Shown here in pieces: positions 21,862-41,025 of a stretch of DNA of 64,000 nt. The notes beneath the pieces were generated by a model that was given only the letters and a program-made list of their open reading frames with translations, did no database searches and was not told the origin of the DNA. Both the position numbers and the translations under genes were made by a program. Source of the stretch: an uncultured Desulfobulbaceae bacterium (GTDB taxonomy: Bacteria > Desulfobacterota > Dissulfuribacteria > Dissulfuribacterales > DYLC01); contig CAYRSX010000038.1 in NCBI GenBank assembly GCA_964427245.1, positions 2,495-66,494 on the forward strand, given 5' to 3'. Position 1 is the first letter of the stretch. Each line of letters starts with the position of its first letter.

Positions 21862-22254
21862 TTACGAGGCTTTGCGTCTGACGTGAACACGCTCCACGAT
21901 CTTTCGATAATAGACCTGGTTTGTCTCCAGAGAGACCTTGGTGCGGCGCATTAGATTCATTTTTGTTATGAGCAGATTGAGTTTGTTGATCTGCCGGTAG
22001 CGTTCTTCCTCTGTAGTAAGGTGTTTTATCATGTCCATGGTGGTGTGAATCTCTTTGGCTGTCTCCAGCTCAGGAGGTAAATAACCGGCGTTTTTGAGAA
22101 TCTTGTAGGCCATACGCAGGTCAGGCGGCACAAAGGAATCGTCTTCGTATTCAAGGGGACGTCCCTTTCCCTGTAGATTGTCGAAATCTCCGCGTTCCAT
22201 AGCCTCTTGGATGCGTTTCTCCGCAATGTATTCCAAAAAATTCAAGTTACTCAT
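21862..22254 (-). CDS. DUF1992 (DnaJ-C28-like) domain protein
   Basis: IAEKRIQEAMERGDFDNLQGKGRPL..DD matches the DUF1992 signature. I chose the ATG at 22254 (MSNLNFLEY...) to avoid overlapping the upstream kinase gene. Confidence 0.65.
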   Translation of the reverse strand: MSNLNFLEYIAEKRIQEAMERGDFDNLQGKGRPLEYEDDSFVPPDLRMAYKILKNAGYLPPELETAKEIHTTMDMIKHLTTEEERYRQINKLNLLITKMNLMRRTKVSLETNQVYYRKIVERVHVRRKAS

Positions 22255-22286
22255 AAAATGAATTATGAAGTTTGGTTGTGCTGCTG

Positions 22287-23645
22287 TCAAGGCAGCATGC
22301 TGTCTTTTACTTGTCCTTGCGTTTTTTCCTTCCATCTCACAGGGAATGTGCAGATTACGCAGGTGCCTTTGTTTGGTTCACTTTCAATGGAGATATTTCC
22401 CTGATGTTCTTCCAATATCTCTTTGACCAAAAAAAGTCCGAGTCCTGTGCCCCCTGGTTTGGTGGTGATGGGTGTTGTAAAGAGTTTTTCTTTTATTTCC
22501 GGCGGAATGCCCTGGCCTTTGTCACAGATAATGACAGAAGGCCTTCCATCCTGACGCAGTAGTTTGATTTGAATGGTACTGTGTGCAGGTGATGCCTCCA
22601 GCGCATTTCTGAGAATATGAATAAATGCGGTTTTCAGAACGCGTTTGTTGGCCATGATCCCCAGGGGTTCCTGTGAAATATCTATCGCAAGCTTTATATC
22701 TTTTTTGGCCAGTCCGGGTTGCCATGTATTCACAACCTCTGTGATGATGTTTTTGAGGTTCTCTTTTGTAAAAGAACGAATCTCCTTTGCGGTCAACTCC
22801 TCGAAGTTCTTCACGAAATCAGAGAGTTCCTTCATGGCCTTTTGAATTATTGCAAGTTTTTGACGGGTGTTTTCAGTTAATGTGGAGTCCTTTTCCAGGA
22901 TAGTGGAGATGAGCCCGCCTGTCACCATCACAGGGTTTCGAATACGGTCCGCTATGCGTAGCGCCATCTGTATGGTGGTGTGTTCTCTGGCCATCGCCTC
23001 CATGTCCTGACTCAGTTGTAGAAGTTCTAAATTCATTCGGTCCAGCTGGTGGTTTTGCAGACTGGTCTGCTCCAGCAGCCGCAGCACCTCTGCGTGTTTG
23101 AGGCGTAGATTTTCCAGGTAGGATTCTTCTGTGTTTTTAAAGAGTTCATTTCTGAAGGAAGCCTCTTTTTTTTGTATTTCGTCCCACGACTTTTGAATGC
23201 CCCATTTGACCGCACTGATTTCAATAGGGGTGTCAATTGTGCCGCCGGTTATGCTGACCTCGTCCAGTACCTTTTTAAGGCCATGAATTACAGGTGTTTT
23301 GTTTAAGGCTGCCTTGTCGGCAGGACATGTGTCGCCATTCAGATTGGTTGCATCGCAGGGTCTTTTGCTTTGGAAGAGGAGTTCTATGCCGCTCTGTTCG
23401 AGTATTTCCTTCATATTGTTTTTTGGAGCTTTCTTGCAGCAGAGAATGCTCATCGTGACTGTTCCGGTTCTGGCCATGCGCATCATCCAGCGAGTCATCT
23501 CGGATGCAGATACAGCTACCTGCGTGGTGGCTATACGGTTCAACCCGCAGATATGACATAGGAGTTTGCTCTTCATGCGCACCTTAGGGATATCTTCCTG
23601 TCTTTTAATCACCAGGGTCAGAATATGCAGTCGGTTCATGTCCAT
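22287..23645 (-). CDS. histidine-kinase-like protein with an intact HATPase_c domain but Asp at the H-box position
   Basis: N-box HILRNALEA, G1 DKGQGIP and G2 GGTGLGL are all present. The DHp-like helix reads ALRIADRIRNPVMVTGG, so Asp233 sits where HE.RNP kinases have His. The N-terminal region of about 120 aa is Cys-rich. Confidence 0.7.
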   Translation of the reverse strand: MDMNRLHILTLVIKRQEDIPKVRMKSKLLCHICGLNRIATTQVAVSASEMTRWMMRMARTGTVTMSILCCKKAPKNNMKEILEQSGIELLFQSKRPCDATNLNGDTCPADKAALNKTPVIHGLKKVLDEVSITGGTIDTPIEISAVKWGIQKSWDEIQKKEASFRNELFKNTEESYLENLRLKHAEVLRLLEQTSLQNHQLDRMNLELLQLSQDMEAMAREHTTIQMALRIADRIRNPVMVTGGLISTILEKDSTLTENTRQKLAIIQKAMKELSDFVKNFEELTAKEIRSFTKENLKNIITEVVNTWQPGLAKKDIKLAIDISQEPLGIMANKRVLKTAFIHILRNALEASPAHSTIQIKLLRQDGRPSVIICDKGQGIPPEIKEKLFTTPITTKPGGTGLGLFLVKEILEEHQGNISIESEPNKGTCVICTFPVRWKEKTQGQVKDSMLP

Positions 23646-24790
23646 CTCACCACCACCAGTGAGGAGTCGTCCTGAGGCGTATTTTTGGGCTGAAACAGAA
23701 TCTGTGCCCAGATAGCGGCGGATGTGTGGCTTGACAGATAACCCGTCAGGTCCGGTGAGTGAAGTACGCCGTCTGAGTGCATTACGATGAGCAGGTCTTC
23801 TGCAATGTCATTGACGGAAGCCATTTGAATGATATTCTTGCTTGAGTTTGTGTGAATATTGCCTACAAGCCCTGGCCGAGGGCTGATATTGTGGCCCTTA
23901 CCGGCAGAATAGACTGTGCATACTGCGTTTCTCAGGCCTGCAGCTAATATCTTTTTTTTCCTGTAATCTATGAATAGCACCTGCATGGATGCCCCGTTGG
24001 AACCGAACAATGCCCCATTCAGGGCATTGATGACTCGATCTGGTTCGTGACTTACCGGCAGGTCTTCCAATAACTGCACTGCGTCACGGGCTATTATGGC
24101 AGCGGTTTCTCCATGACCCGTGACGTCTATGAGGGCGATGCGGCAGAAAGAGCCGTCGTCTTGAAGAGATACCGCGTCTCCTGATTGCGTCTGACCCGGA
24201 CATGGCCGGATAATGGCCGAGACATGAAGCGGCTGCCTTTCTTTAGGTTTATTAAATATATCGGCAGGTTGTTCCTCGATTGTGGCGGAGACTATCGTGG
24301 CATAATTTTTATAAGTGAGTGGGCGAGGGCATGGAGAAACGCCGAATTGCATGGAACAGATATGAAACCGGCTCGACAGACGTTTCACTGTTCCAAGGCC
24401 TATTCCCAGGCCTCCAGAGGTGCTGAAACCATCTTCCATGGCTTTTTCTACATTGGGGATGCCGGGTCCTTCATCAAGGCTCGCTATGGTTATGACAGGA
24501 ATGCGGTTCAGGGACATGCCGCTTATGCGTATCAGGCCGTTTTGAGTGGCATGCGCCAGGTGGTTCTGGGCCAGTTCGCTGGCTACGAGGACTGCTTCCT
24601 GTCTGCGGGCGGAGGAGACAAAAAGTTGTTCAGCTGCTATGCCTGCTAGCTGTCTGGCGATGGCCACATCCTTGGGTGTGCTTACAGAAAGTTCAGACCA
24701 TACGAAAGGCAGGCCGTTTTTAATCTGCTGCCCTTCGTGATTTTCAAAGGTGTTAGCTGCACTCATTTTGTCTGTTGTGAAGTTTGTCAT
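23636..24790 (-). CDS. fused RsbW-like ATP-binding domain plus PP2C/SpoIIE phosphatase (RsbX/RsbU-like)
   Basis: N-terminal part: LVASELAQN...DEGPGIP...GGLGIGLG (HATPase_c_2). C-terminal part: SGDAV...IDVTGHGETAA...MHSDGV (PP2C). The ATG at 24790 makes an ATGA overlap with the rsbT-like stop. Confidence 0.75.
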   Translation of the reverse strand: MTNFTTDKMSAANTFENHEGQQIKNGLPFVWSELSVSTPKDVAIARQLAGIAAEQLFVSSARRQEAVLVASELAQNHLAHATQNGLIRISGMSLNRIPVITIASLDEGPGIPNVEKAMEDGFSTSGGLGIGLGTVKRLSSRFHICSMQFGVSPCPRPLTYKNYATIVSATIEEQPADIFNKPKERQPLHVSAIIRPCPGQTQSGDAVSLQDDGSFCRIALIDVTGHGETAAIIARDAVQLLEDLPVSHEPDRVINALNGALFGSNGASMQVLFIDYRKKKILAAGLRNAVCTVYSAGKGHNISPRPGLVGNIHTNSSKNIIQMASVNDIAEDLLIVMHSDGVLHSPDLTGYLSSHTSAAIWAQILFQPKNTPQDDSSLVVVRWT

Positions 24791-25215
24791 GGCGATAGCC
24801 ACTTTATGACCTCGACTCGTGTGCCGTGTGGAAGCAGATTGTTAATTTGCACCTGATCCGAGAGATTGGTGATGCCCGAAAGCCCCAGGCCAAGGCCGTT
24901 GTCTTCAGAAAATCCCGGTTGAACGGCCTTTTTGATGTTGTTTATGTCAGGGCCTGAGTCGGTTGCCACTATCCTGAAACCTATCCGTCCTTCCTGTGTC
25001 AGCACCTCCATACAGATTTCGCCTCTGTCGGCGTGTCTCAGAATGTTTTTGCCCAGTTCGTTTATGATGGTCAGCAGTTCAGTTGCCGGCTGTTTTCGAA
25101 TATGAAGGGCGTTAAAAAGGGTCCGGGCCTTTGTCCTGATCTTGCTGAGGCTGTTTGCAGGAGTGACAGCTGCGCATATGTGCTGGTGTGTTGTGGGCCC
25201 TGAAGTGCTGTTCAT
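24787..25215 (-). CDS. rsbT: RsbT-like serine kinase / anti-sigma regulatory factor
   Basis: ELLTIINELGKNILRHADRGEI...ATDSGPDI...GLGLGLSGI is a small HATPase_c_2 protein lying directly after rsbS. Confidence 0.75.
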   Translation of the reverse strand: MNSTSGPTTHQHICAAVTPANSLSKIRTKARTLFNALHIRKQPATELLTIINELGKNILRHADRGEICMEVLTQEGRIGFRIVATDSGPDINNIKKAVQPGFSEDNGLGLGLSGITNLSDQVQINNLLPHGTRVEVIKWLSP

Positions 25216-25565
25216 CGCAATCTCAAAAGCGCCTGCTCCATATCTAGGGCAAACTCTACATTTTTGAGCTGAATGTTGAAGTCTGTCAGAGTGAGGGCGA
25301 CCGGCACCTGAATGCCTGCCACCACGACTCGTGACCTCAGCATGTGCAAAAAAGAGACGAGCCTTTCGATGTGTTCGGCAAGAAAGGTATCCATGGCCTC
25401 CACTTCGTGCATGTCTATAATCACCGCCTTGGCCTTGGTTTTTGAGACTTGCTTGCCAAGGCGCTGAAGAAGGCGTTCTATGCTCGAATCATCGATTTCT
25501 TCTTGAATAGATACCAGCAGAATGTCTTCGAGGGAGAAGATGGAAAATGGCTCCATGTCGTTCAA
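25212..25565 (-). CDS. rsbS: RsbS-like single STAS domain protein
   Basis: A 117-aa STAS fold (ILLVSIQEEIDDSSIERLLQRL...AVIIDMHEVEAMDTFLAEHI...) that is translationally coupled on both sides. Confidence 0.75.
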   Translation of the reverse strand: MNDMEPFSIFSLEDILLVSIQEEIDDSSIERLLQRLGKQVSKTKAKAVIIDMHEVEAMDTFLAEHIERLVSFLHMLRSRVVVAGIQVPVALTLTDFNIQLKNVEFALDMEQALLRLR

Positions 25566-26437
25566 TCCTGCTGAACACCCTCGTTTTTGATTATATTCAT
25601 GGCCGCCTTTCTTTTCTGTATCTCCAGGAGGGCCAGATAGAGGGCATCGCTCATTCGGCTGCGCACGGTGATGGTTGTCATATTTACGCCAAGATGTGCC
25701 ATGGTCAGGGCGATGTGCGGTGAGATGCCTGTGAGAATGGCCTCGCTTCCCATGAGTCTCGTGGCATCAACGGTCTGTAGAAGCCGGCTGGCAACCTCAG
25801 TATCCACTGTGGGAACGCCGGTGATATCGATGATGACGAACGGGGCACGAGTCTTTTCTATGGTTTCCAGCAGGCGTTCCATGGCCATGCGTGCCCTGTG
25901 ACTGTCCAGGGTCCCTATGAGTGGTAGGGCCAGAACGCCTTCCCAGAGCTCTATGACAGGCGTGGAGAGTTCGAGCACCTCGTTTTGCAGATGGCGGATA
26001 TTTTCTTCCTGTTTGCGCAGGAGCTCTTCCTGTTGTCTTTGAATCAGTTGTTCCTGTTCAAGGCGTTTAGAGATGTCAACGAAGTGTTCCACACACCCAA
26101 CGATGCGGCCTTCGTGGTTTTTGAGGGGTCTGGCTGCATATTCTATGGGGATTTCTTTGCCATTATACTTAAGAACCGTCTGTCCATGGCAAACTTCATC
26201 TGTTTCTGTAGCGAGGAGACAGGCACATTTTTCTGTGCCGCACATGCTTGTATTGAAGATCTCACTACATTTTTGGTCAAAGCACTCTCCAGGCGTTTTG
26301 CCGACTATGGAAGAGGCGCCCTTGTTTATGAGCAGGATGTTGTGTTCCTTATCGGTGACAAAGATGCCGGAAGGCACAGCGTTTATGATCTCGAACAGAA
26401 AGCCTTCATTGTTTTTGTAATCACTGATGGTTTCCAT
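25562..26437 (-). CDS. rsbR: RsbR-like stressosome sensor: Cys-rich PAS domain plus C-terminal STAS domain
   Basis: The C-terminus STPVIELWEGVLALPLIGTLDSHRARMAMERLLETI...FVIIDITGVPTVDTEVA...ILTGISPHIA is RsbR-type STAS. The N-terminal PAS domain has Cys at positions 52, 57, 66, 71, 73 and 83. Confidence 0.8.
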   Translation of the reverse strand: METISDYKNNEGFLFEIINAVPSGIFVTDKEHNILLINKGASSIVGKTPGECFDQKCSEIFNTSMCGTEKCACLLATETDEVCHGQTVLKYNGKEIPIEYAARPLKNHEGRIVGCVEHFVDISKRLEQEQLIQRQQEELLRKQEENIRHLQNEVLELSTPVIELWEGVLALPLIGTLDSHRARMAMERLLETIEKTRAPFVIIDITGVPTVDTEVASRLLQTVDATRLMGSEAILTGISPHIALTMAHLGVNMTTITVRSRMSDALYLALLEIQKRKAAMNIIKNEGVQQD

Positions 26438-26518
26438 GGCAGTCTCTCCTTAAGTCGATATATGGTATGCGGCAGCGTGCCTCCACAATGGGTGTAAAGG
26501 AGGGTAGTACAAAATATA

Positions 26519-27202
26519 TTATGCCGGTATTCCAATGGATAATTTTTGAGCATCCATGTGCAATATCCAGCCTGTTTCCACGGTTTTTACTGAAAGATAT
26601 TTCTTCAGAATGGAGGCCGGATAGACGGTTTCAAAGGCCTGTTGAGTTGAATCTGTTTGTTGTTCTTCCGTAAACGGTGAGCCGTTTTGGCTGAATGTTA
26701 TGGAATATGCCGCAGGATTGTCTGTGATCGCACAATTTATTTCAAAATCGCATGGTGTTTTGTGCCGCAGGCCTTCTATGCTCAAGGCTATGCAGCCTCC
26801 GATGATTCCGCGTGCCGTCGCTTCTTGGGCTATGGTAAAGACCTGTTTCTGAAATAGGTTAATCGTTTTGTTGACTTTGTGTTTGAAAAATAGATCCGCA
26901 TTCCAGAAGGCTAGTTCTTGTTCTATCATGTCATTCAGAACTATCGGCTGGACTTGAGTATTATTTGTGTTGGCATGATTTACCATGCATTGTATTTGTT
27001 TTTCAAGTCTTTTTATGTTCGCTTGCAGATTGTCGATTTGCTGCTGGTTGATTGATTTTATTTTATCTATCAATTCCGTCTGCATGGAAATTATCTGCAA
27101 TGGTCCATTCAGATTATGTACAAGACCCTTGAGCAGCATAGCTGTAAGTTGTGCGGGGAGATTGTTGAAAAGATATAGACATTCCTCATTGGTTAGATTC
27201 AT
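26519..27202 (-). CDS. DHp/H-box-containing kinase-like protein lacking recognisable ATP-binding boxes
   Basis: It has the H-box-like KGLVHNLNGPLQIISMQTELI (His29) followed by a coiled coil. The C-terminal half has no clear N, G1 or G2 box. Confidence 0.55.
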   Translation of the reverse strand: MNLTNEECLYLFNNLPAQLTAMLLKGLVHNLNGPLQIISMQTELIDKIKSINQQQIDNLQANIKRLEKQIQCMVNHANTNNTQVQPIVLNDMIEQELAFWNADLFFKHKVNKTINLFQKQVFTIAQEATARGIIGGCIALSIEGLRHKTPCDFEINCAITDNPAAYSITFSQNGSPFTEEQQTDSTQQAFETVYPASILKKYLSVKTVETGWILHMDAQKLSIGIPA

Positions 27203-27219: not shown

Positions 27220-27858
27220 TTATATTTTAGCAAACAGTTTCTGTTTCATGAGATTGAATTCGTCGAGAGATATCAGACCTTTTTCGTAAAGATTACTCAG
27301 TCGTTCCAAGTGTGTCAGGGAATCGTTTCCGCTTTGTGTCTGTGCATAATAGGCCGACGGTGGTATGTCCGTTGGATAGAGGAAGATGGGCTGGCTGAGC
27401 TGGGCCGATCGTTCTGTCTGTCTCAGGTTGTCCAGCTCTTCAAGCCGCTTTAAGAGCGCTCGGTTTTCTTTGAGCAAAAGGATTCTTTCGCAGGCATTTT
27501 GCACACTGATCTCTACTTCATCCAGCCGAAAGGGTTTGCGGATATAATCGTAGGCCCCCTGATGAATGGCCTCTATGGCGGTGTCGAGAGAGGCATAGCC
27601 TGTCATGATGATGATCATGATTTCTGAATAAAGTTCCTTGGCTTTTTTCATTACCTCTGTGCCGCTTGCACCGGGCATAATAAGATCGGTTATGAGTAGG
27701 TCGTATGAGTGTGCCTGAAGCGCGGATATGGCATCAAGTCCATTATATACGACTGTTATTTGCCTTTCGGGCCTGCTAAGGTCGTTAGCGAGCAGATCCC
27801 CGACAGCTTTTTCATCCTCTGCAACAAGAATGCTGATAGAGGGGCGGTCATCTGTCAT
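27220..27858 (-). CDS. response regulator receiver domain with a C-terminal SHOCT-like tail
   Basis: ILVAEDE...LLITDLIMPG...IIIMTGYAS...DYIRKPF is a REC domain. The C-terminal LERLSNLYEKGLISLDEFNLMKQKL resembles SHOCT. Confidence 0.8.
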   Translation of the reverse strand: MTDDRPSISILVAEDEKAVGDLLANDLSRPERQITVVYNGLDAISALQAHSYDLLITDLIMPGASGTEVMKKAKELYSEIMIIIMTGYASLDTAIEAIHQGAYDYIRKPFRLDEVEISVQNACERILLLKENRALLKRLEELDNLRQTERSAQLSQPIFLYPTDIPPSAYYAQTQSGNDSLTHLERLSNLYEKGLISLDEFNLMKQKLFAKI

Positions 27859-37746: not shown

Positions 37747-37782
37747 GCGCTACAGATGAATTACGACAGGGTATGAAACACT

Positions 37783-39279
37783 ATGGCAGTTATATTATTA
37801 GTGGATGATGATCGAAGTTTAAGGGAGTTTCTGGAGATCTTTCTTGTGAAAGAGGGGCATATCGTTCTGCCTGCTGCTAATGCCGCCGAGGCCTTGAAGC
37901 TCCTTGACGATCGTTTGGATATACAGGTGGTGATAAGCGATATCCGTATGCCCGACATGAGCGGCATAGAGCTTCTGAAGCGAATAAAGGCTCAAAGGCA
38001 AGAGTTGCCCGTGGTGCTTATAACGGCCTTCGCCTCAATGGATACGGCCATATCCGCTATGCGAGAAGGGGCATGGGATTATCTGGCCAAGCCGTTTCGT
38101 CTGGATGAGGTGCGCCGAGTGCTGCAAAACGTCTTAGGGTCGCATAATATGCCTTTTACATTGGAGCAGGCAGCAGCATCCTCTGTTATTCAGGAGAAAT
38201 TATCTCAGAAGGTGACCGTTAGTAACAGTAACGAACTCCAGTATCCGCACAAGGGTCTTCATATACATCGTATGGATCGCATGGTGTCATGCAGTCCAGT
38301 CATGCTCAAGATATTTCAGCTTGTTCAAAAGATCGCATCGAGCCTATCCAGCGTATTGATAACAGGCGAAAGTGGTACTGGTAAGGAGCTGGTGGCGCGT
38401 GCCATTCACAATCTCGGCAATCGAGCGAAGAATCCTTTTGTAGTGGTGAATTGTGGTGGAATACCGGAAAATTTATTGGAGACAGAGCTTTTCGGCCATG
38501 TAAAAGGGGCTTTCACCGGAGCTGACAGAGAAAAGACCGGCCTGTTCTCTTTGGCTGATAAAGGCACCATCTTTCTGGATGAAATCGGCGAGTTACCCCT
38601 TACTCTTCAGGTCAAGTTGTTGCGAGTGGTGCAGGAGAAGACCTTCATGCCAGTGGGTGGAACTGGCGAGCAGCAAGTCGATGTGCGTATTATAGCTGCG
38701 ACCAATCGAGATATGGAAAAAGAGGTTATTGCCGGTAGATTCCGTGAGGATCTCTTTTACCGTCTGAACGTCATTCACATACACGTTCCGCCTCTTCGGG
38801 AACGGCCTGAGGATATACCGGTTTTGGTTCAGTATTTTCTGGATAAATTTGCAAAAGAGCAGGGGAAGTCCCTACAGGGGATCTCCAGCTTTGCCATGAA
38901 AATACTCCAGGGATATACCTTTCCGGGGAATATTCGAGAACTGGAAAATATAGTTGAAAGAAGTGTAACTTTGGAGACTTCCAGTATTCTTTTGCCGGAA
39001 AGCCTGTCTATTTCCCGCTTCAAAGAGACTGTTGAAGGCACTGCTGAATATTCGTCTAGTTCGAACGAATTAAAACCATTGCATCTTCTTAGTTGTCTTG
39101 AGTCACTGGAGATACCCAATGAGGGTATTGAACTGGATGAATTCCTTGCAAATATCGAAAAGGCTCTGATCTTGAAGGCATTGAGGATTACTAACGGTTC
39201 AAAAATGAATGCCGCTCGATTGCTGCGTATGAATTTTCGCTCCTTTCGTTACCGGTTGGATAAGTACGGCATAGAATAA
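37783..39279 (+). CDS. sigma-54-dependent two-component response regulator (REC, AAA+, Fis-type HTH), NtrC family
   Basis: ILLVDDD...VISDIRMPDMSG (REC), GESGTGKE Walker A, GAFTGA loop, and a C-terminal HTH (NAARLLRMNFRSFRYRLDKYGI). Confidence 0.9.
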   Translation: MAVILLVDDDRSLREFLEIFLVKEGHIVLPAANAAEALKLLDDRLDIQVVISDIRMPDMSGIELLKRIKAQRQELPVVLITAFASMDTAISAMREGAWDYLAKPFRLDEVRRVLQNVLGSHNMPFTLEQAAASSVIQEKLSQKVTVSNSNELQYPHKGLHIHRMDRMVSCSPVMLKIFQLVQKIASSLSSVLITGESGTGKELVARAIHNLGNRAKNPFVVVNCGGIPENLLETELFGHVKGAFTGADREKTGLFSLADKGTIFLDEIGELPLTLQVKLLRVVQEKTFMPVGGTGEQQVDVRIIAATNRDMEKEVIAGRFREDLFYRLNVIHIHVPPLRERPEDIPVLVQYFLDKFAKEQGKSLQGISSFAMKILQGYTFPGNIRELENIVERSVTLETSSILLPESLSISRFKETVEGTAEYSSSSNELKPLHLLSCLESLEIPNEGIELDEFLANIEKALILKALRITNGSKMNAARLLRMNFRSFRYRLDKYGIE

Positions 39280-39282
39280 AAC

Positions 39283-41025
39283 ATGCTTTCTTGGCTGCGC
39301 AGTACCTTTCATGTGAATGGCACCGTGAATGAAAAAGACTCCATCTTTTCCTTTGGGTGGGAACCATTTTCTCCCGAACCCTTAGACTACCGACAGTTTC
39401 AATGGCTCACATGGGGCAGACTTGCCTTAGTGCTTTTATTGTTTACAGCCATCTTTTTGTTTTCCAATTATTTGGGTCCGATCGTTCAGCTGCCTGATGC
39501 TTTGTTGAAGGTGGCCTATCTTTCTTTGGCTGCCCTGGCCGTAACTTATGGCTATATTCAGTGGTATAAAACAGGAAAGCGCTTGAGGCAGTTGTCCCTG
39601 CTGCAGATTACTTTGGACATATTGTTTGCAGCAGCGGTGGTCTATGTAACAGGCATGGCATTGAGCCCCTTTTTGTTTCTTTTCCCTGTCATCGTTTTGG
39701 CTGCCTGTCTGTTGCAGGGCAGACAGGGCGGTCAGTTTGCAGCGGTGTTTTTTACTCTGCTGTACGCACTTATAGTCTGGCTGGACAAGTCCTTTTCTCT
39801 GCGTGACGCCTCCAATCTGATTGTTTTTTTTGTCAATATAGTGGTAGTGAATCTTACTGCCCTGCTGGCTGGTGCTCTGGCGGAGCGGTTAAAGCGTGCG
39901 GAACGCCGTCTCTCTCTCGCAGTAGTGGACCTTAAGCGAGTGCAGGAGATGCAGAGGCATCTGGCCGATAATCTGGCGTCAGGTCTGGTGATGTTGAATA
40001 CGGAGGGGCGAATTCTGACATTGAACCGTAGCGCTGAGACTATGTTGAGTATTAGAGCCTCGGACTATATAGGCAGCACGATCTATGACCTCTGGCCTGA
40101 TATAGGTGTTGATTTTTGTAATTTTATAGCAGAGTTTCAAGAAGGAGATCGAAGACGCAGGGAGATTTTCTACGATGGCTCTGTAGGCAGAATTATTTTA
40201 GGACTTTCAGTATTTAGTATGCAGGATGGAAAGGGAGGTCTTCTTGGTTATGGCATCATCTTTCAGGACCTGACGGAGATAAGGCGTCAGGAGGAGAGGT
40301 TACGTAGAGTGGAGAGACTTGCCTCTCTGGGTGAGATGGCCGCAGGCATGGCCCATGAGATTCGAAATCCCCTGGCTTCCATATCCGGAGTAGTGGAATT
40401 TCTGCAGGAAGGGGGTATGGTCAATGCCGATGGCGGCAGGTTGCTGGAGATACTTCAGAGAGAGATTCAGCGTCTGACCGAGCTTACAGAGTCCTTTTTG
40501 TTGTATGCCAGGCCTGAAAAGGGCGGAGAACAGCCTGTAAACGTGCTGAATGCCGTAAACGAGACCATAGGGCTTTTGAGCAGTCGCAAGCTTGCTAAAT
40601 TGAATGTGCAGGTACAGGTGCCGAGCGATGTGTTTGTACGAGTCAATCCTGCTCAGTTTCGTCAGGTGCTGCTGAATCTGGTTTTAAATGCAGTGCAGGC
40701 CATGAGCCCCAAGATGGAAAGGGGTGAGAAAGGTGAGTTGTTTGTGGGGGTTGAACTCGAGAGTCGCAGGGGCAACAGGCCGGTCGCACCTACTGATAGA
40801 ATCGTCCTTGTTGTGCGGGACAATGGAGCCGGTATGCCGGAGGATGTGATGGCACACATATTTGACCCATTCTTTACCACTCGTGCCGATGGTACCGGCC
40901 TGGGGCTCTCTATTGTGCAAAGGCTGGTGGATGCATGGGGTGGCGAGGTGGAGTGCTCTTCCGAGGTGAACGAGGGCACTGAGTTCAAAATCCTGTTGCC
41001 TGTTTCAGATTTTCCAAAAACCTGA
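39283..41025 (+). CDS. membrane sensor histidine kinase (multi-TM, PAS, HisKA, HATPase_c), partner of the preceding regulator
   Basis: H-box MAHEIRNPLASI, N-box LNLVLNAVQA, G1 DNGAGMP, G2 GTGLGLSIV. The N-terminal hydrophobic segments resemble PilS- or NtrY-type sensors. Confidence 0.85.
   Translation: MLSWLRSTFHVNGTVNEKDSIFSFGWEPFSPEPLDYRQFQWLTWGRLALVLLLFTAIFLFSNYLGPIVQLPDALLKVAYLSLAALAVTYGYIQWYKTGKRLRQLSLLQITLDILFAAAVVYVTGMALSPFLFLFPVIVLAACLLQGRQGGQFAAVFFTLLYALIVWLDKSFSLRDASNLIVFFVNIVVVNLTALLAGALAERLKRAERRLSLAVVDLKRVQEMQRHLADNLASGLVMLNTEGRILTLNRSAETMLSIRASDYIGSTIYDLWPDIGVDFCNFIAEFQEGDRRRREIFYDGSVGRIILGLSVFSMQDGKGGLLGYGIIFQDLTEIRRQEERLRRVERLASLGEMAAGMAHEIRNPLASISGVVEFLQEGGMVNADGGRLLEILQREIQRLTELTESFLLYARPEKGGEQPVNVLNAVNETIGLLSSRKLAKLNVQVQVPSDVFVRVNPAQFRQVLLNLVLNAVQAMSPKMERGEKGELFVGVELESRRGNRPVAPTDRIVLVVRDNGAGMPEDVMAHIFDPFFTTRADGTGLGLSIVQRLVDAWGGEVECSSEVNEGTEFKILLPVSDFPKT

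What the first reader, a model, noticed from the sequence alone, without database searches (positions are those of the whole stretch)
22287..27202. Complementary defects suggest a split histidine kinase: ATP-binding domain without the His, and His-bearing DHp without ATP-binding boxes
Protein 22287..23645 has textbook N, G1 and G2 boxes (HILRNALEA, DKGQGIP, GGTGLGL). Where HisKA proteins read H-E-x-R-N-P-L, however, it reads A-D-R-I-R-N-P-V (Asp233, codon at 22947-22949).

Protein 26519..27202 has the reverse pattern. It carries an H-box-like LVHNLNGPLQ (His29, codon 27116-27118) followed by a coiled coil, but no recognisable N, G1 or G2 box.

Both are encoded in the same operon as a REC protein. 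One hypothesis is trans-phosphorylation, with the CA domain of one protein phosphorylating the His of the other, gated by the stressosome. Alternatively the Asp variant is a locked pseudo-kinase or phosphatase.
Basis: inference. Interest (0 to 1): 0.6.

Follow-up and report, generated by a model that had tools for sequence, protein, structure and literature searches.

The report
Histidine-less kinase beside degenerate phosphotransfer protein
The two complementary defects are real, but the proteins belong to two separate signalling modules that sit side by side only in this small clade: a stress-complex output "kinase" that always has aspartate where the phosphorylated histidine should be, and a kinase-derived protein that kept its histidine but lost ATP binding.

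Summary
In the 452-aa protein, Asp233 sits exactly at the phospho-acceptor His of the H-box, and its N, G1 and G2 boxes are intact. The Asp is invariant in 28 distinct orthologues (32-85% identity). The 227-aa protein keeps an invariant His29. It has a predicted DHp plus CA-like fold, but it has lost the N-box Asn, the G1 Asp, and the F and G2 boxes.

An obligatory split kinase is not supported.
- The Asp protein ("D-HK") is a stressosome output. Its N-terminal domain is RsbT-like, and it follows rsbR-rsbS in nearly every locus examined.
- The 227-aa protein ("P227") belongs to a different, widespread cassette: REC-SHOCT, then REC-GAF-HD-GYP, then a small kinase. Outgroup members of that cassette have an intact CA.
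- The two genes are adjacent only in the window's own clade.
- Degenerate P227 occurs in near-complete genomes that lack D-HK.
- Two distant D-HK orthologues have lost their ATP boxes yet keep the Asp.

Best reading: D-HK is a stressosome-controlled histidine pseudokinase, possibly a response-regulator phosphatase (D233-x3-N237). P227 is a Spo0B/ChpT/PhyT-like phosphotransfer protein. Trans-phosphorylation restricted to this clade remains possible but is untested.

The parts
27220..27858 (-). Response regulator: REC domain plus C-terminal SHOCT (212 aa). The acidic pair E14/D15, phospho-acceptor D58, T86 and K108 are all present.
   Evidence: Pfam Response_reg 3.4e-23; SHOCT 24.5 bits, below the 27-bit cut-off here but 32.9 bits in the orthologue in L012. 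Motif positions. Orthologues (E about 1e-45) head the REC-SHOCT / REC-GAF-HD-GYP / P227 cassette in about 35 loci.
26519..27202 (-). P227: DHp hairpin with invariant His29 (H-box VHNLNGPLQ), followed by a CA-like domain that has lost the N-box Asn, the G1 Asp, and the F and G2 boxes.
   Evidence: A2 invariants are G26, H29, N30, Q36, F99, D103 and K107. AF2 pLDDT 86. Foldseek matches HK853 at 1e-10 and ChpT (4fmt, 4fpp) at 4e-8. Box-by-box comparison with intact-CA relatives.
27116..27118 (-). Codon CAT for His29 of P227.
25562..26437 (-). RsbR-like stressosome sensor: PAS plus STAS (291 aa).
   Evidence: Pfam PAS_4 1.1e-15 and STAS 5e-13. Conserved upstream of D-HK in nearly all loci.
25212..25565 (-). 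RsbS-like single STAS protein (117 aa).
   Evidence: Pfam STAS 1.8e-11.
24787..25215 (-). RsbT-like GHKL serine kinase (142 aa).
   Evidence: Pfam HATPase_c_2 2.4e-09.
23636..24802 (-). RsbT-like domain fused to a PP2C (SpoIIE) phosphatase (388 aa). Probably the RsbX-type feedback phosphatase.
   Evidence: Pfam SpoIIE 3.5e-07 and HATPase_c_2 4.1e-06. hhalign of RsbT against its N-terminal part gives 99%.
22287..23645 (-). D-HK (452 aa; public records start it at Met3, giving 450 aa): RsbT-like pseudo-GHKL domain, coiled coil (S-helix), DHp with Asp233 in place of His, and an intact CA domain.
23151..23645 (-). D-HK residues 1-165: RsbT-like domain without the N-box Asn or the G1 box.
   Evidence: hhalign against RsbT gives probability 87%, E 4e-6, over 128 columns; unrelated control domains give below 0.5%. 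The AF2 order of strands and helices fits a GHKL fold. No Pfam or PDB sequence match.
22776..22982 (-). D-HK DHp, residues 222-290. The H-box is I-A-D233-R-I-R-N237-P.
   Evidence: Helix 172-252 and helix 258-289 in the model. Alignment to ThkA, KinB and ZraS.
22947..22949 (-). Codon GAC for Asp233, at the phospho-acceptor position.
22290..22775 (-). D-HK CA domain with N (343-351), G1 (375-381) and G2 (398-404) boxes.
   Evidence: Pfam HATPase_c 2.4e-22. Box positions.
21862..22335 (-). DJC28_CD-family protein at the tail of the gene row. It is kept next to D-HK only in the window's clade (L007).
   Evidence: Pfam PF09350 2.7e-27. Context.

Best explanation
Two separate modules lie in one gene row.

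(1) D-HK is the output protein of a stressosome, the RsbR-RsbS-RsbT stress-sensing complex. Its N-terminal RsbT-like pseudo-kinase domain most likely docks it to the RsbR/RsbS complex, or lets it compete with RsbT. A coiled coil links this domain to a kinase-type DHp-CA core. That core cannot autophosphorylate on His, because the acceptor is an invariant Asp and the neighbouring catalytic Glu is Arg, Lys or Gln.

I infer that D-HK works as a histidine pseudokinase. When the stressosome switches, its DHp binds a partner receiver domain or a related kinase and lowers that partner's phosphorylation. The most probable activity is a dedicated phosphatase using Asp233 and Asn237, which lie one helical turn apart. 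This is the spacing of the CheZ D-x3-Q and NarX D-x3-Q phosphatase motifs. ATP or ADP bound to the intact CA would act as a conformational cofactor.

(2) P227 descends from a small soluble kinase that sits in a REC-SHOCT / REC-GAF-HD-GYP cassette. Within the window's order its CA has lost ATP binding while His29 is kept. It therefore most likely shuttles or removes phosphoryl groups between receiver domains, as Spo0B, ChpT and PhyT do. Here it would work with the REC-SHOCT protein encoded 17 nt upstream.

In the window's clade this cassette lost its HD-GYP regulator and moved next to rsbR, so the two modules are now probably co-transcribed.

What is shown: the residues, the predicted folds, the conservation and the gene neighbourhoods. 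What is inferred: docking to the stressosome, phosphatase activity, phosphotransfer by P227 and co-transcription.
For: Residues and conservation of D-HK: D233 lies on the phospho-His column and R234 on the Glu column. The Asp is invariant in 24 of 24 and in 28 distinct orthologues, and N237 and P238 are also invariant.

Stressosome link: the N-terminal domain is specifically RsbT-like, at 87% against below 0.5% for control domains. D-HK follows rsbR-rsbS(-rsbT-PP2C) in L001, L004, L005, L007, L009, L096-L098 and L100-L102.

Informative variants: in L002/L003 the row is only rsbR-rsbS-D-HK, and that D-HK has degenerate ATP boxes but keeps the Asp. In L094 an RsbR-type PAS domain is fused directly to the same Asp-bearing DHp-CA.

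P227: it has the kinase fold (HK853 1e-10) and also matches ChpT (4e-8). The same H-box occurs with intact N, G1, F and G2 boxes in outgroup cassette members, and these boxes are lost in the window's order. The cassette neighbours are REC-SHOCT and REC-GAF-HD-GYP.

Precedents: degenerate kinases that act as phosphotransferases are PhyT, Spo0B and ChpT (PMC5898713). Histidine pseudokinases are DivL (PMC4211667) and PsmA (PMC12963549).

Operon: no terminator-like site on the coding strand in the 81-nt gap between P227 and rsbR.
Against: No biochemistry exists. The partner of D-HK is unknown.

The canonical HisKA phosphatase motif is E/D at +1 with T/N at +4 (PMC12963549 cites it). Here +1 is Arg, so phosphatase chemistry would need the Asp at position 0 to substitute.

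Intact ATP boxes in about 26 of 28 orthologues could mean real phosphotransfer rather than a cofactor role.

The RsbT-like assignment rests on one profile-profile match plus the order of secondary-structure elements. There is no Pfam or PDB sequence hit.

Both the D-HK family and the degenerate state of P227 are innovations of the same order. This leaves room for a functional link.

No RNA data show co-transcription.
Confidence: 0.6

Rival explanations
1. Split kinase, the first reader's idea, restricted to this clade. After the cassette moved next to the stressosome operon, the intact CA of D-HK phosphorylates His29 of P227 in a hetero-complex. P227 then passes the phosphate to REC-SHOCT.
For: The defects are exactly complementary. 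In the window's clade the only P227 copy is the one beside the stressosome genes, and the HD-GYP regulator is gone. CA loss in P227 and the origin of D-HK both map to the same order. Isolated CA and DHp domains of EnvZ complement in vitro (my own knowledge: Park, Saha and Inouye 1998).
Against: The genes are adjacent only in L007, L008, L009 and the window. In other genomes they are far apart. Degenerate P227 exists without D-HK in G099 and G341. D-HK orthologues with dead ATP boxes keep the Asp. The two DHp families are very different, and P227 carries its own pseudo-CA where a foreign CA would have to dock.
Confidence: 0.12
2. D-HK forms mixed dimers with its closest His-bearing paralogue. 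This is a roughly 380-aa membrane kinase whose H-box reads LAHEIRNPVMVIGG. D-HK would switch that kinase under stressosome control, acting as a regulatory or 'poison' subunit.
For: The paralogue has a nearly identical DHp helix 1. It is present in the window's own genome (C2:34637-35767) and in essentially every D-HK genome examined. The usual specificity positions match: V/G/T against V/G/S.
Against: The paralogue is never adjacent to D-HK. It also occurs widely without D-HK, in families f17, f80 and f102. There is no test of dimerisation.
Confidence: 0.12
3. D-HK is a protein Ser/Thr kinase that uses its intact GHKL domain on another protein, such as a STAS protein, the PP2C protein or a receiver. 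RsbT, mitochondrial PDK/BCK and plant phytochromes work this way.
For: ATP boxes are conserved in most orthologues. The protein sits in a Ser/Thr partner-switching context. In Moorella, RsbT phosphorylates the downstream output protein, as cited in PMC4976288.
Against: This does not explain why Asp233 and Asn237 are invariant. It also does not explain why the Asp survives in orthologues whose ATP boxes have decayed.
Confidence: 0.1
4. Asp233 is itself phosphorylated by the CA to give an acyl phosphate. This would make D-HK an 'aspartate autokinase' or an ATPase cycle.
For: The Asp is invariant at the exact acceptor site and sits beside an intact CA.
Against: There is no precedent. An Asp side chain is shorter than His. 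There is no receiver-like metal pocket. The Asp is kept where the ATP boxes are lost.
Confidence: 0.03

Closest known systems
DivL of Caulobacter (histidine pseudokinase; PDB 4q20; PMC4211667)
   Same: A DHp-CA kinase fold in which the phospho-acceptor His is replaced. It is used to sense or bind a receiver protein rather than to autophosphorylate. 4q20 is among the top sequence and fold matches.
   Different: DivL has Tyr, not Asp. It has PAS inputs and no stressosome link. It belongs to an unrelated lineage.
PsmA of Streptomyces (histidine pseudokinase; PMC12963549)
   Same: A kinase-like protein that lacks the H-box His. The S. coelicolor orthologue even has Asp there.
   Different: In PsmA the residue varies (E, D, Q, V, Y), the phosphatase motif is absent and ATP-binding residues are missing. 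In D-HK the Asp and Asn237 are invariant and the ATP boxes are mostly intact.
Spo0B, ChpT and PhyT (dimeric histidine phosphotransferases derived from kinases; PMC5898713, PMC3433190)
   Same: P227 has a DHp with a conserved His plus a CA-like domain that cannot bind ATP. It is encoded with receiver proteins. The fold matches ChpT.
   Different: There is no detectable sequence relationship. P227 has its own H-box (VHNxNGPLQ) and a conserved FWxxDLFFKH motif. Its intact-CA relatives still exist in the same cassette, so the decay is recent and traceable.
Stressosomes with non-sigma outputs (Vibrio vulnificus VvD1/VvD2, Moorella MtG; PMC9237108, PMC4976288)
   Same: An rsbR-rsbS-rsbT-rsbX row followed by two-component-type proteins instead of RsbU/RsbV/RsbW/SigB.
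   Different: I found no description of an output that fuses an RsbT-like pseudo-domain to a DHp-CA with Asp for His. The papers I read do not describe such a protein, and I did not examine the Vibrio sequences myself.
CheZ, CheX and NarX-type phosphatase motifs (D-x3-Q, E-x2-N; my own knowledge)
   Same: An acidic residue and an amide residue one helical turn apart on a helix that faces the receiver active site. In D-HK these are D233 and N237.
   Different: The motif in D-HK starts at the former His position, not at +1. No activity has been shown.

Membership tests
HisKA-type sensor histidine kinase (D-HK) | Phospho-acceptor His in the H-box of DHp helix 1 | tested here: not met
   Asp233 aligns with the His of ThkA, KinB and ZraS. 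The Asp is invariant in 28 orthologues.
HisKA-type sensor histidine kinase (D-HK) | Pfam HisKA above the gathering score | tested here: not met
   19.6 bits against a cut-off of 26.9.
HisKA-type sensor histidine kinase (D-HK) | HATPase_c domain with N, G1 and G2 boxes | tested here: met
   HATPase_c 2.4e-22. Boxes at 343-351, 375-381 and 398-404.
Histidine pseudokinase (DivL/PsmA kind) (D-HK) | Kinase DHp-CA fold without the acceptor His, conserved as such | tested here: met
Histidine pseudokinase (DivL/PsmA kind) (D-HK) | No autophosphorylation; acts by binding partners | not testable with these tools
   Needs a gamma-32P ATP assay and interaction tests.
Stressosome module (RsbR-RsbS-RsbT) | RsbR-type (sensor plus STAS), RsbS-type STAS and an RsbT-type GHKL kinase encoded together | tested here: met
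   Pfam. The same row recurs in relatives.
Stressosome module (RsbR-RsbS-RsbT) | D-HK N-terminal domain is RsbT-like and docks to the complex | tested here: inconclusive
   hhalign 87%, E 4e-6, with clean negative controls, but no Pfam or PDB sequence hit. Docking itself is untested.
Spo0B/ChpT/PhyT-type histidine phosphotransferase (P227) | DHp with a conserved His | tested here: met
   H29 is invariant in 29 sequences and 72 loci. Helical hairpin 24-47 and 53-77.
Spo0B/ChpT/PhyT-type histidine phosphotransferase (P227) | CA-like domain that lacks ATP-binding residues | tested here: met
   CA fold. N-box Asn, G1 Asp, and F and G2 boxes are absent, while intact in outgroup relatives.
Spo0B/ChpT/PhyT-type histidine phosphotransferase (P227) | Transfers phosphate between two receiver domains | not testable with these tools
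   Only context is available: two REC proteins in the usual cassette and one REC protein here.
Split (two-polypeptide) histidine kinase D-HK + P227 | The two parts co-occur and are co-encoded wherever either is found | tested here: not met
   They are adjacent only in the window's clade. P227 occurs without D-HK in G099 and G341. The genes are far apart in G001 and G002.
Split (two-polypeptide) histidine kinase D-HK + P227 | The CA of one part phosphorylates the His of the other | not testable with these tools
   No multimer prediction or biochemistry is available here.

The most novel reading that the evidence does not exclude
The intact CA of D-HK still moves phosphate, but not to a His of its own. 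In this clade it would load His29 of P227, making a natural two-polypeptide histidine kinase gated by a stressosome. More broadly, the invariant A-D-[RKQ]-[IV]-R-N-P box would define a transmitter class with its own chemistry, either a DHp-based D-x3-N receiver phosphatase or an Asp acceptor.
Probability: 0.15. Interest if true: 0.85.

Novelty: new variant of a known kind. Interest (0 to 1): 0.5.

Why it matters
How stressosomes signal outside Bacillus and Listeria is largely open. This work points to a conserved output type in one order of sulfur bacteria. The output fuses an RsbT-like docking domain to a kinase core whose His is always Asp. That strict conservation, with Asn237 and mostly intact ATP boxes, sets it apart from decayed pseudokinases and makes a defined chemistry testable with a few point mutants.

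Separately, the P227 family shows a kinase turning into a probable phosphotransfer protein. Intact and decayed forms sit in the same cassette next to a c-di-GMP phosphodiesterase regulator. This is a clean system for studying how phosphorelays arise.

Tried and rejected
1. H184 is invariant, but it lies about 49 residues up the coiled coil, outside the four-helix bundle.

2. P227 as a truncated remnant of the PilS-like kinase found beside the stressosome in relatives is rejected. BLASTP similarity is only 22% over the DHp. The PilR/PilS-like pair is itself still in the window, at about 37777-41022.

3. Genome-level co-occurrence as support for pairing is uninformative. P227 is in 14 of 14 sampled genomes of the order, so D-HK always co-occurs with it trivially.

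4. Pfam and PDB sequence searches with the D-HK N-terminal domain found nothing.

5. phmmer of P227 against PDB sequences found nothing. Only the fold search did.

6. Expression evidence is unavailable. Only DNA metagenomes hold the locus, and there are no RNA runs.

7. A multimer prediction of the pair could not be run with the tools at hand.

8. No paper combining 'stressosome' and 'pseudokinase' in a relevant way was found.

Full report
THE LOCUS. Eight genes lie on the minus strand with overlaps or short gaps:
- REC-SHOCT regulator (27858..27220)
- the 227-aa protein, P227 (27202..26519)
- RsbR-like PAS-STAS (26437..25562)
- RsbS (25565..25212)
- RsbT (25215..24787)
- an RsbT-like domain fused to a PP2C phosphatase (24802..23636)
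- the 452-aa protein, D-HK (23645..22287)
- a DJC28_CD-family protein (22335..21862)

Pfam and NCBIfam confirm these assignments. The only gap of any size is 81 nt between P227 and rsbR. It has no terminator-like site on the coding strand. Co-transcription is likely but not shown, because only DNA metagenomes hold this sequence.

D-HK has a strong HATPase_c domain (2.4e-22). Its N, G1 and G2 boxes lie at residues 343-351, 375-381 and 398-404. Its HisKA match is below threshold. phmmer against PDB chains aligns RIADRIRNP with RVAHEIRNP of ThkA and with the H-boxes of KinB and ZraS. Asp233 (GAC, 22947-22949) therefore stands on the phospho-acceptor His, and Arg234 on the catalytic Glu.

- In 22 aligned orthologues at 32-85% identity, A232, D233, N237 and P238 are invariant.
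- All 24 orthologues returned by the search carry Asp. Of 96 other kinase hits, 82 align a His there, and the other 14 are unreliable alignments.
- Across all loci, 28 distinct orthologues read xAD[RKQ][IV][RL]NP.
- The upstream 'REH' is not conserved.

P227 has only a weak HisKA hit, which places His29 on the acceptor column. H29 is invariant in its family. The model has pLDDT 86. It matches full kinase cores (HK853, 1e-10) and also the phosphotransferase ChpT (4e-8). A box-by-box alignment with relatives shows that the N-box Asn, the G1 Asp, and the F and G2 boxes are gone.

WHAT D-HK IS. Its first 165 residues match a profile of the local RsbT proteins over the whole domain: hhalign probability 87%, E 4e-6, 128 columns. 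They also match the RsbT-like part of the PP2C protein (81%). Profiles of STAS, REC, PAS, PP2C and its own CA score below 0.5%. The N-box Asn and the G1 box are missing, so this is a pseudo-RsbT domain. The order of secondary-structure elements in the model fits a GHKL fold. Neither Pfam nor PDB sequences recognise it, so I rate this assignment as moderate. A long helix (172-252) runs from a conserved linker through an S-helix-like stretch into DHp helix 1, which carries D233. Helix 2 (258-289) and the CA domain follow.

Gene context of D-HK. It follows rsbR-rsbS, usually with rsbT and the RsbT-PP2C gene in between, in Dissulfurimicrobium (L001), Dissulfurirhabdus (L004) and many metagenome genomes (L005, L007, L009, L096-L098, L100-L102). 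Three variants are informative:
- In L002/L003 the row is just rsbR-rsbS-D-HK. That D-HK has decayed ATP boxes but still has the Asp.
- In L094 an RsbR-type PAS domain is fused directly to the same Asp-bearing DHp-CA, with no stressosome genes nearby.
- In L099 D-HK stands without stressosome genes nearby.

In a sample of 401 genomes of the phylum, full-length D-HK occurs only in the window's order, in 10 of 14 genomes plus the PAS variant. Its nearest His-bearing relatives are membrane kinases of about 380 aa that read AHEIRNP or AHGIRNP. One of them is in the window's own genome, outside the window.

WHAT P227 IS. An exhaustive profile search found about 280 relatives, mostly 230-290 aa. In 80 genome loci the commonest neighbourhood is REC-SHOCT, then a REC-GAF-HD-GYP regulator, then the P227-like gene. 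A sigma-54 activator often follows. Members outside the window's order have the same VHNxNGPLQ H-box and the same neighbours, but intact N, G1, F and G2 boxes. P227 is therefore a decayed descendant of a small soluble kinase. This is the path proposed for PhyT, Spo0B and ChpT (PMC5898713). A histidine phosphotransfer or phosphatase role between receiver domains is the best inference.

In the window's clade (L007, L008, L009 and the window) the HD-GYP gene is absent. The pair REC-SHOCT and P227 sits directly upstream of rsbR, and it is the only P227 copy in those genomes.

THE SPLIT-KINASE IDEA. Evidence against it as the design of either family:
- The genes are adjacent only in that one clade. 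In Dissulfurimicrobium and Dissulfurirhabdus they lie far apart.
- P227-like genes are in 14 of 14 sampled genomes of the order. These include G099 and G341, which are at least 99% complete, lack D-HK and still have the degenerate form in the full cassette.
- The Asp survives where the CA of D-HK has decayed.
- P227 has its own pseudo-CA packed where a foreign CA would need to reach.
- The DHp positions that usually set partner choice differ: V241/G244/T248 against I37/M40/L44. Which positions matter is my own knowledge from HK853 and EnvZ work.

Points in its favour: the defects are exactly complementary. CA decay in P227 and the birth of D-HK both map to the same order. The relocation in this clade puts both genes under one control. 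I put this reading at about 0.12.

MECHANISM I COMMIT TO. D-HK is a stressosome-controlled histidine pseudokinase. Its invariant D233 and N237 lie one helical turn apart, as do the catalytic pairs of CheZ and NarX (my own knowledge). I therefore favour a receiver phosphatase or a tight receiver-binding role, with nucleotide as a cofactor. This is inference. The canonical HisKA phosphatase motif needs an acid at +1 (cited in PMC12963549), and here that residue is Arg. The candidate partners are REC-SHOCT, the PilR-like regulator that flanks the stressosome in six relatives, and the membrane paralogue. They cannot be told apart here.

COMPARISON WITH KNOWN SYSTEMS. Histidine pseudokinases are known: DivL (PMC4211667) and PsmA (PMC12963549). 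Stressosomes wired to two-component proteins are also known (PMC9237108, PMC4976288). I found no description of an RsbT-like domain fused to an Asp-for-His kinase core.

Two earlier notes of this scan saw the same protein type in other genomes, and one follow-up reached a similar reading. These are not independent evidence, but I re-derived the main points here.

VERDICT. This is a new variant of known kinds and of moderate interest.

Noticed in passing
window about 37777-39276 (+) and 39280-41022 (+) (stop-to-stop ORF limits): A sigma-54 response regulator (PilR/NtrC-like) and a 6TM PilS-like kinase. In six relatives (L001, L004, L005, L096, L097, L102) this pair lies directly upstream of rsbR. 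In the window it sits about 10 kb away on the other strand, and REC-SHOCT plus P227 occupy its place.
   Followed up: partly
L094:5057-6256 (+) (genome G228, same order): A D-HK variant in which an RsbR-type PAS domain (1e-43 to the window's RsbR PAS) is fused straight to the coiled coil and the Asp-bearing DHp-CA (EIADRFRNP). There are no stressosome genes beside it.
   Followed up: partly
L002 and L003, 6723-9314 (+): A minimal row of rsbR-rsbS-D-HK without rsbT or PP2C. This D-HK (P0022) has lost the N, G1 and G2 boxes but keeps IADRIRNP.
   Followed up: partly
L092:2204-3337 (-) (genome G212, another family of the phylum): A membrane paralogue of the D-HK core reads GVADGIRNP, while its close relatives read AHEIRNP or AHGIRNP. 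This may be a second, independent His-to-Asp change.
   Followed up: no
L012, L014, L019, L029, L035-L037, L043, L044, L047-L050, L103-L109 and others: A widespread cassette in this phylum: REC-SHOCT, then REC-GAF-HD-GYP, then a small sensor-less kinase with H-box VHNxNGPLQ and motif FWxxDLFFKH. A sigma-54 activator often follows. The CA is intact in some lineages and decayed in others.
   Followed up: partly
window 22287-22335: The DJC28_CD ORF as listed overlaps the end of D-HK by 49 nt, so its true start is probably further downstream. Public records also start D-HK at Met3 (450 aa; P0001).
   Followed up: no
D-HK residues 165-192 (window about 23070-23153): A very conserved linker, LFxDTEESYLENLRAKHEEVLRLL, lies between the RsbT-like domain and the coiled coil. 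It holds invariant F169, S175, N179, L180, K183, H184 and E186. Its function is unknown.
   Followed up: no
own genome, contig C34:28864-30426 (-) and C39:12467-13981 (+), outside the window: The genome has no REC-GAF-HD-GYP protein of the cassette type. The nearest relatives are a PAS-GAF-HD-GYP protein and a REC-HD-GYP protein.
   Followed up: partly
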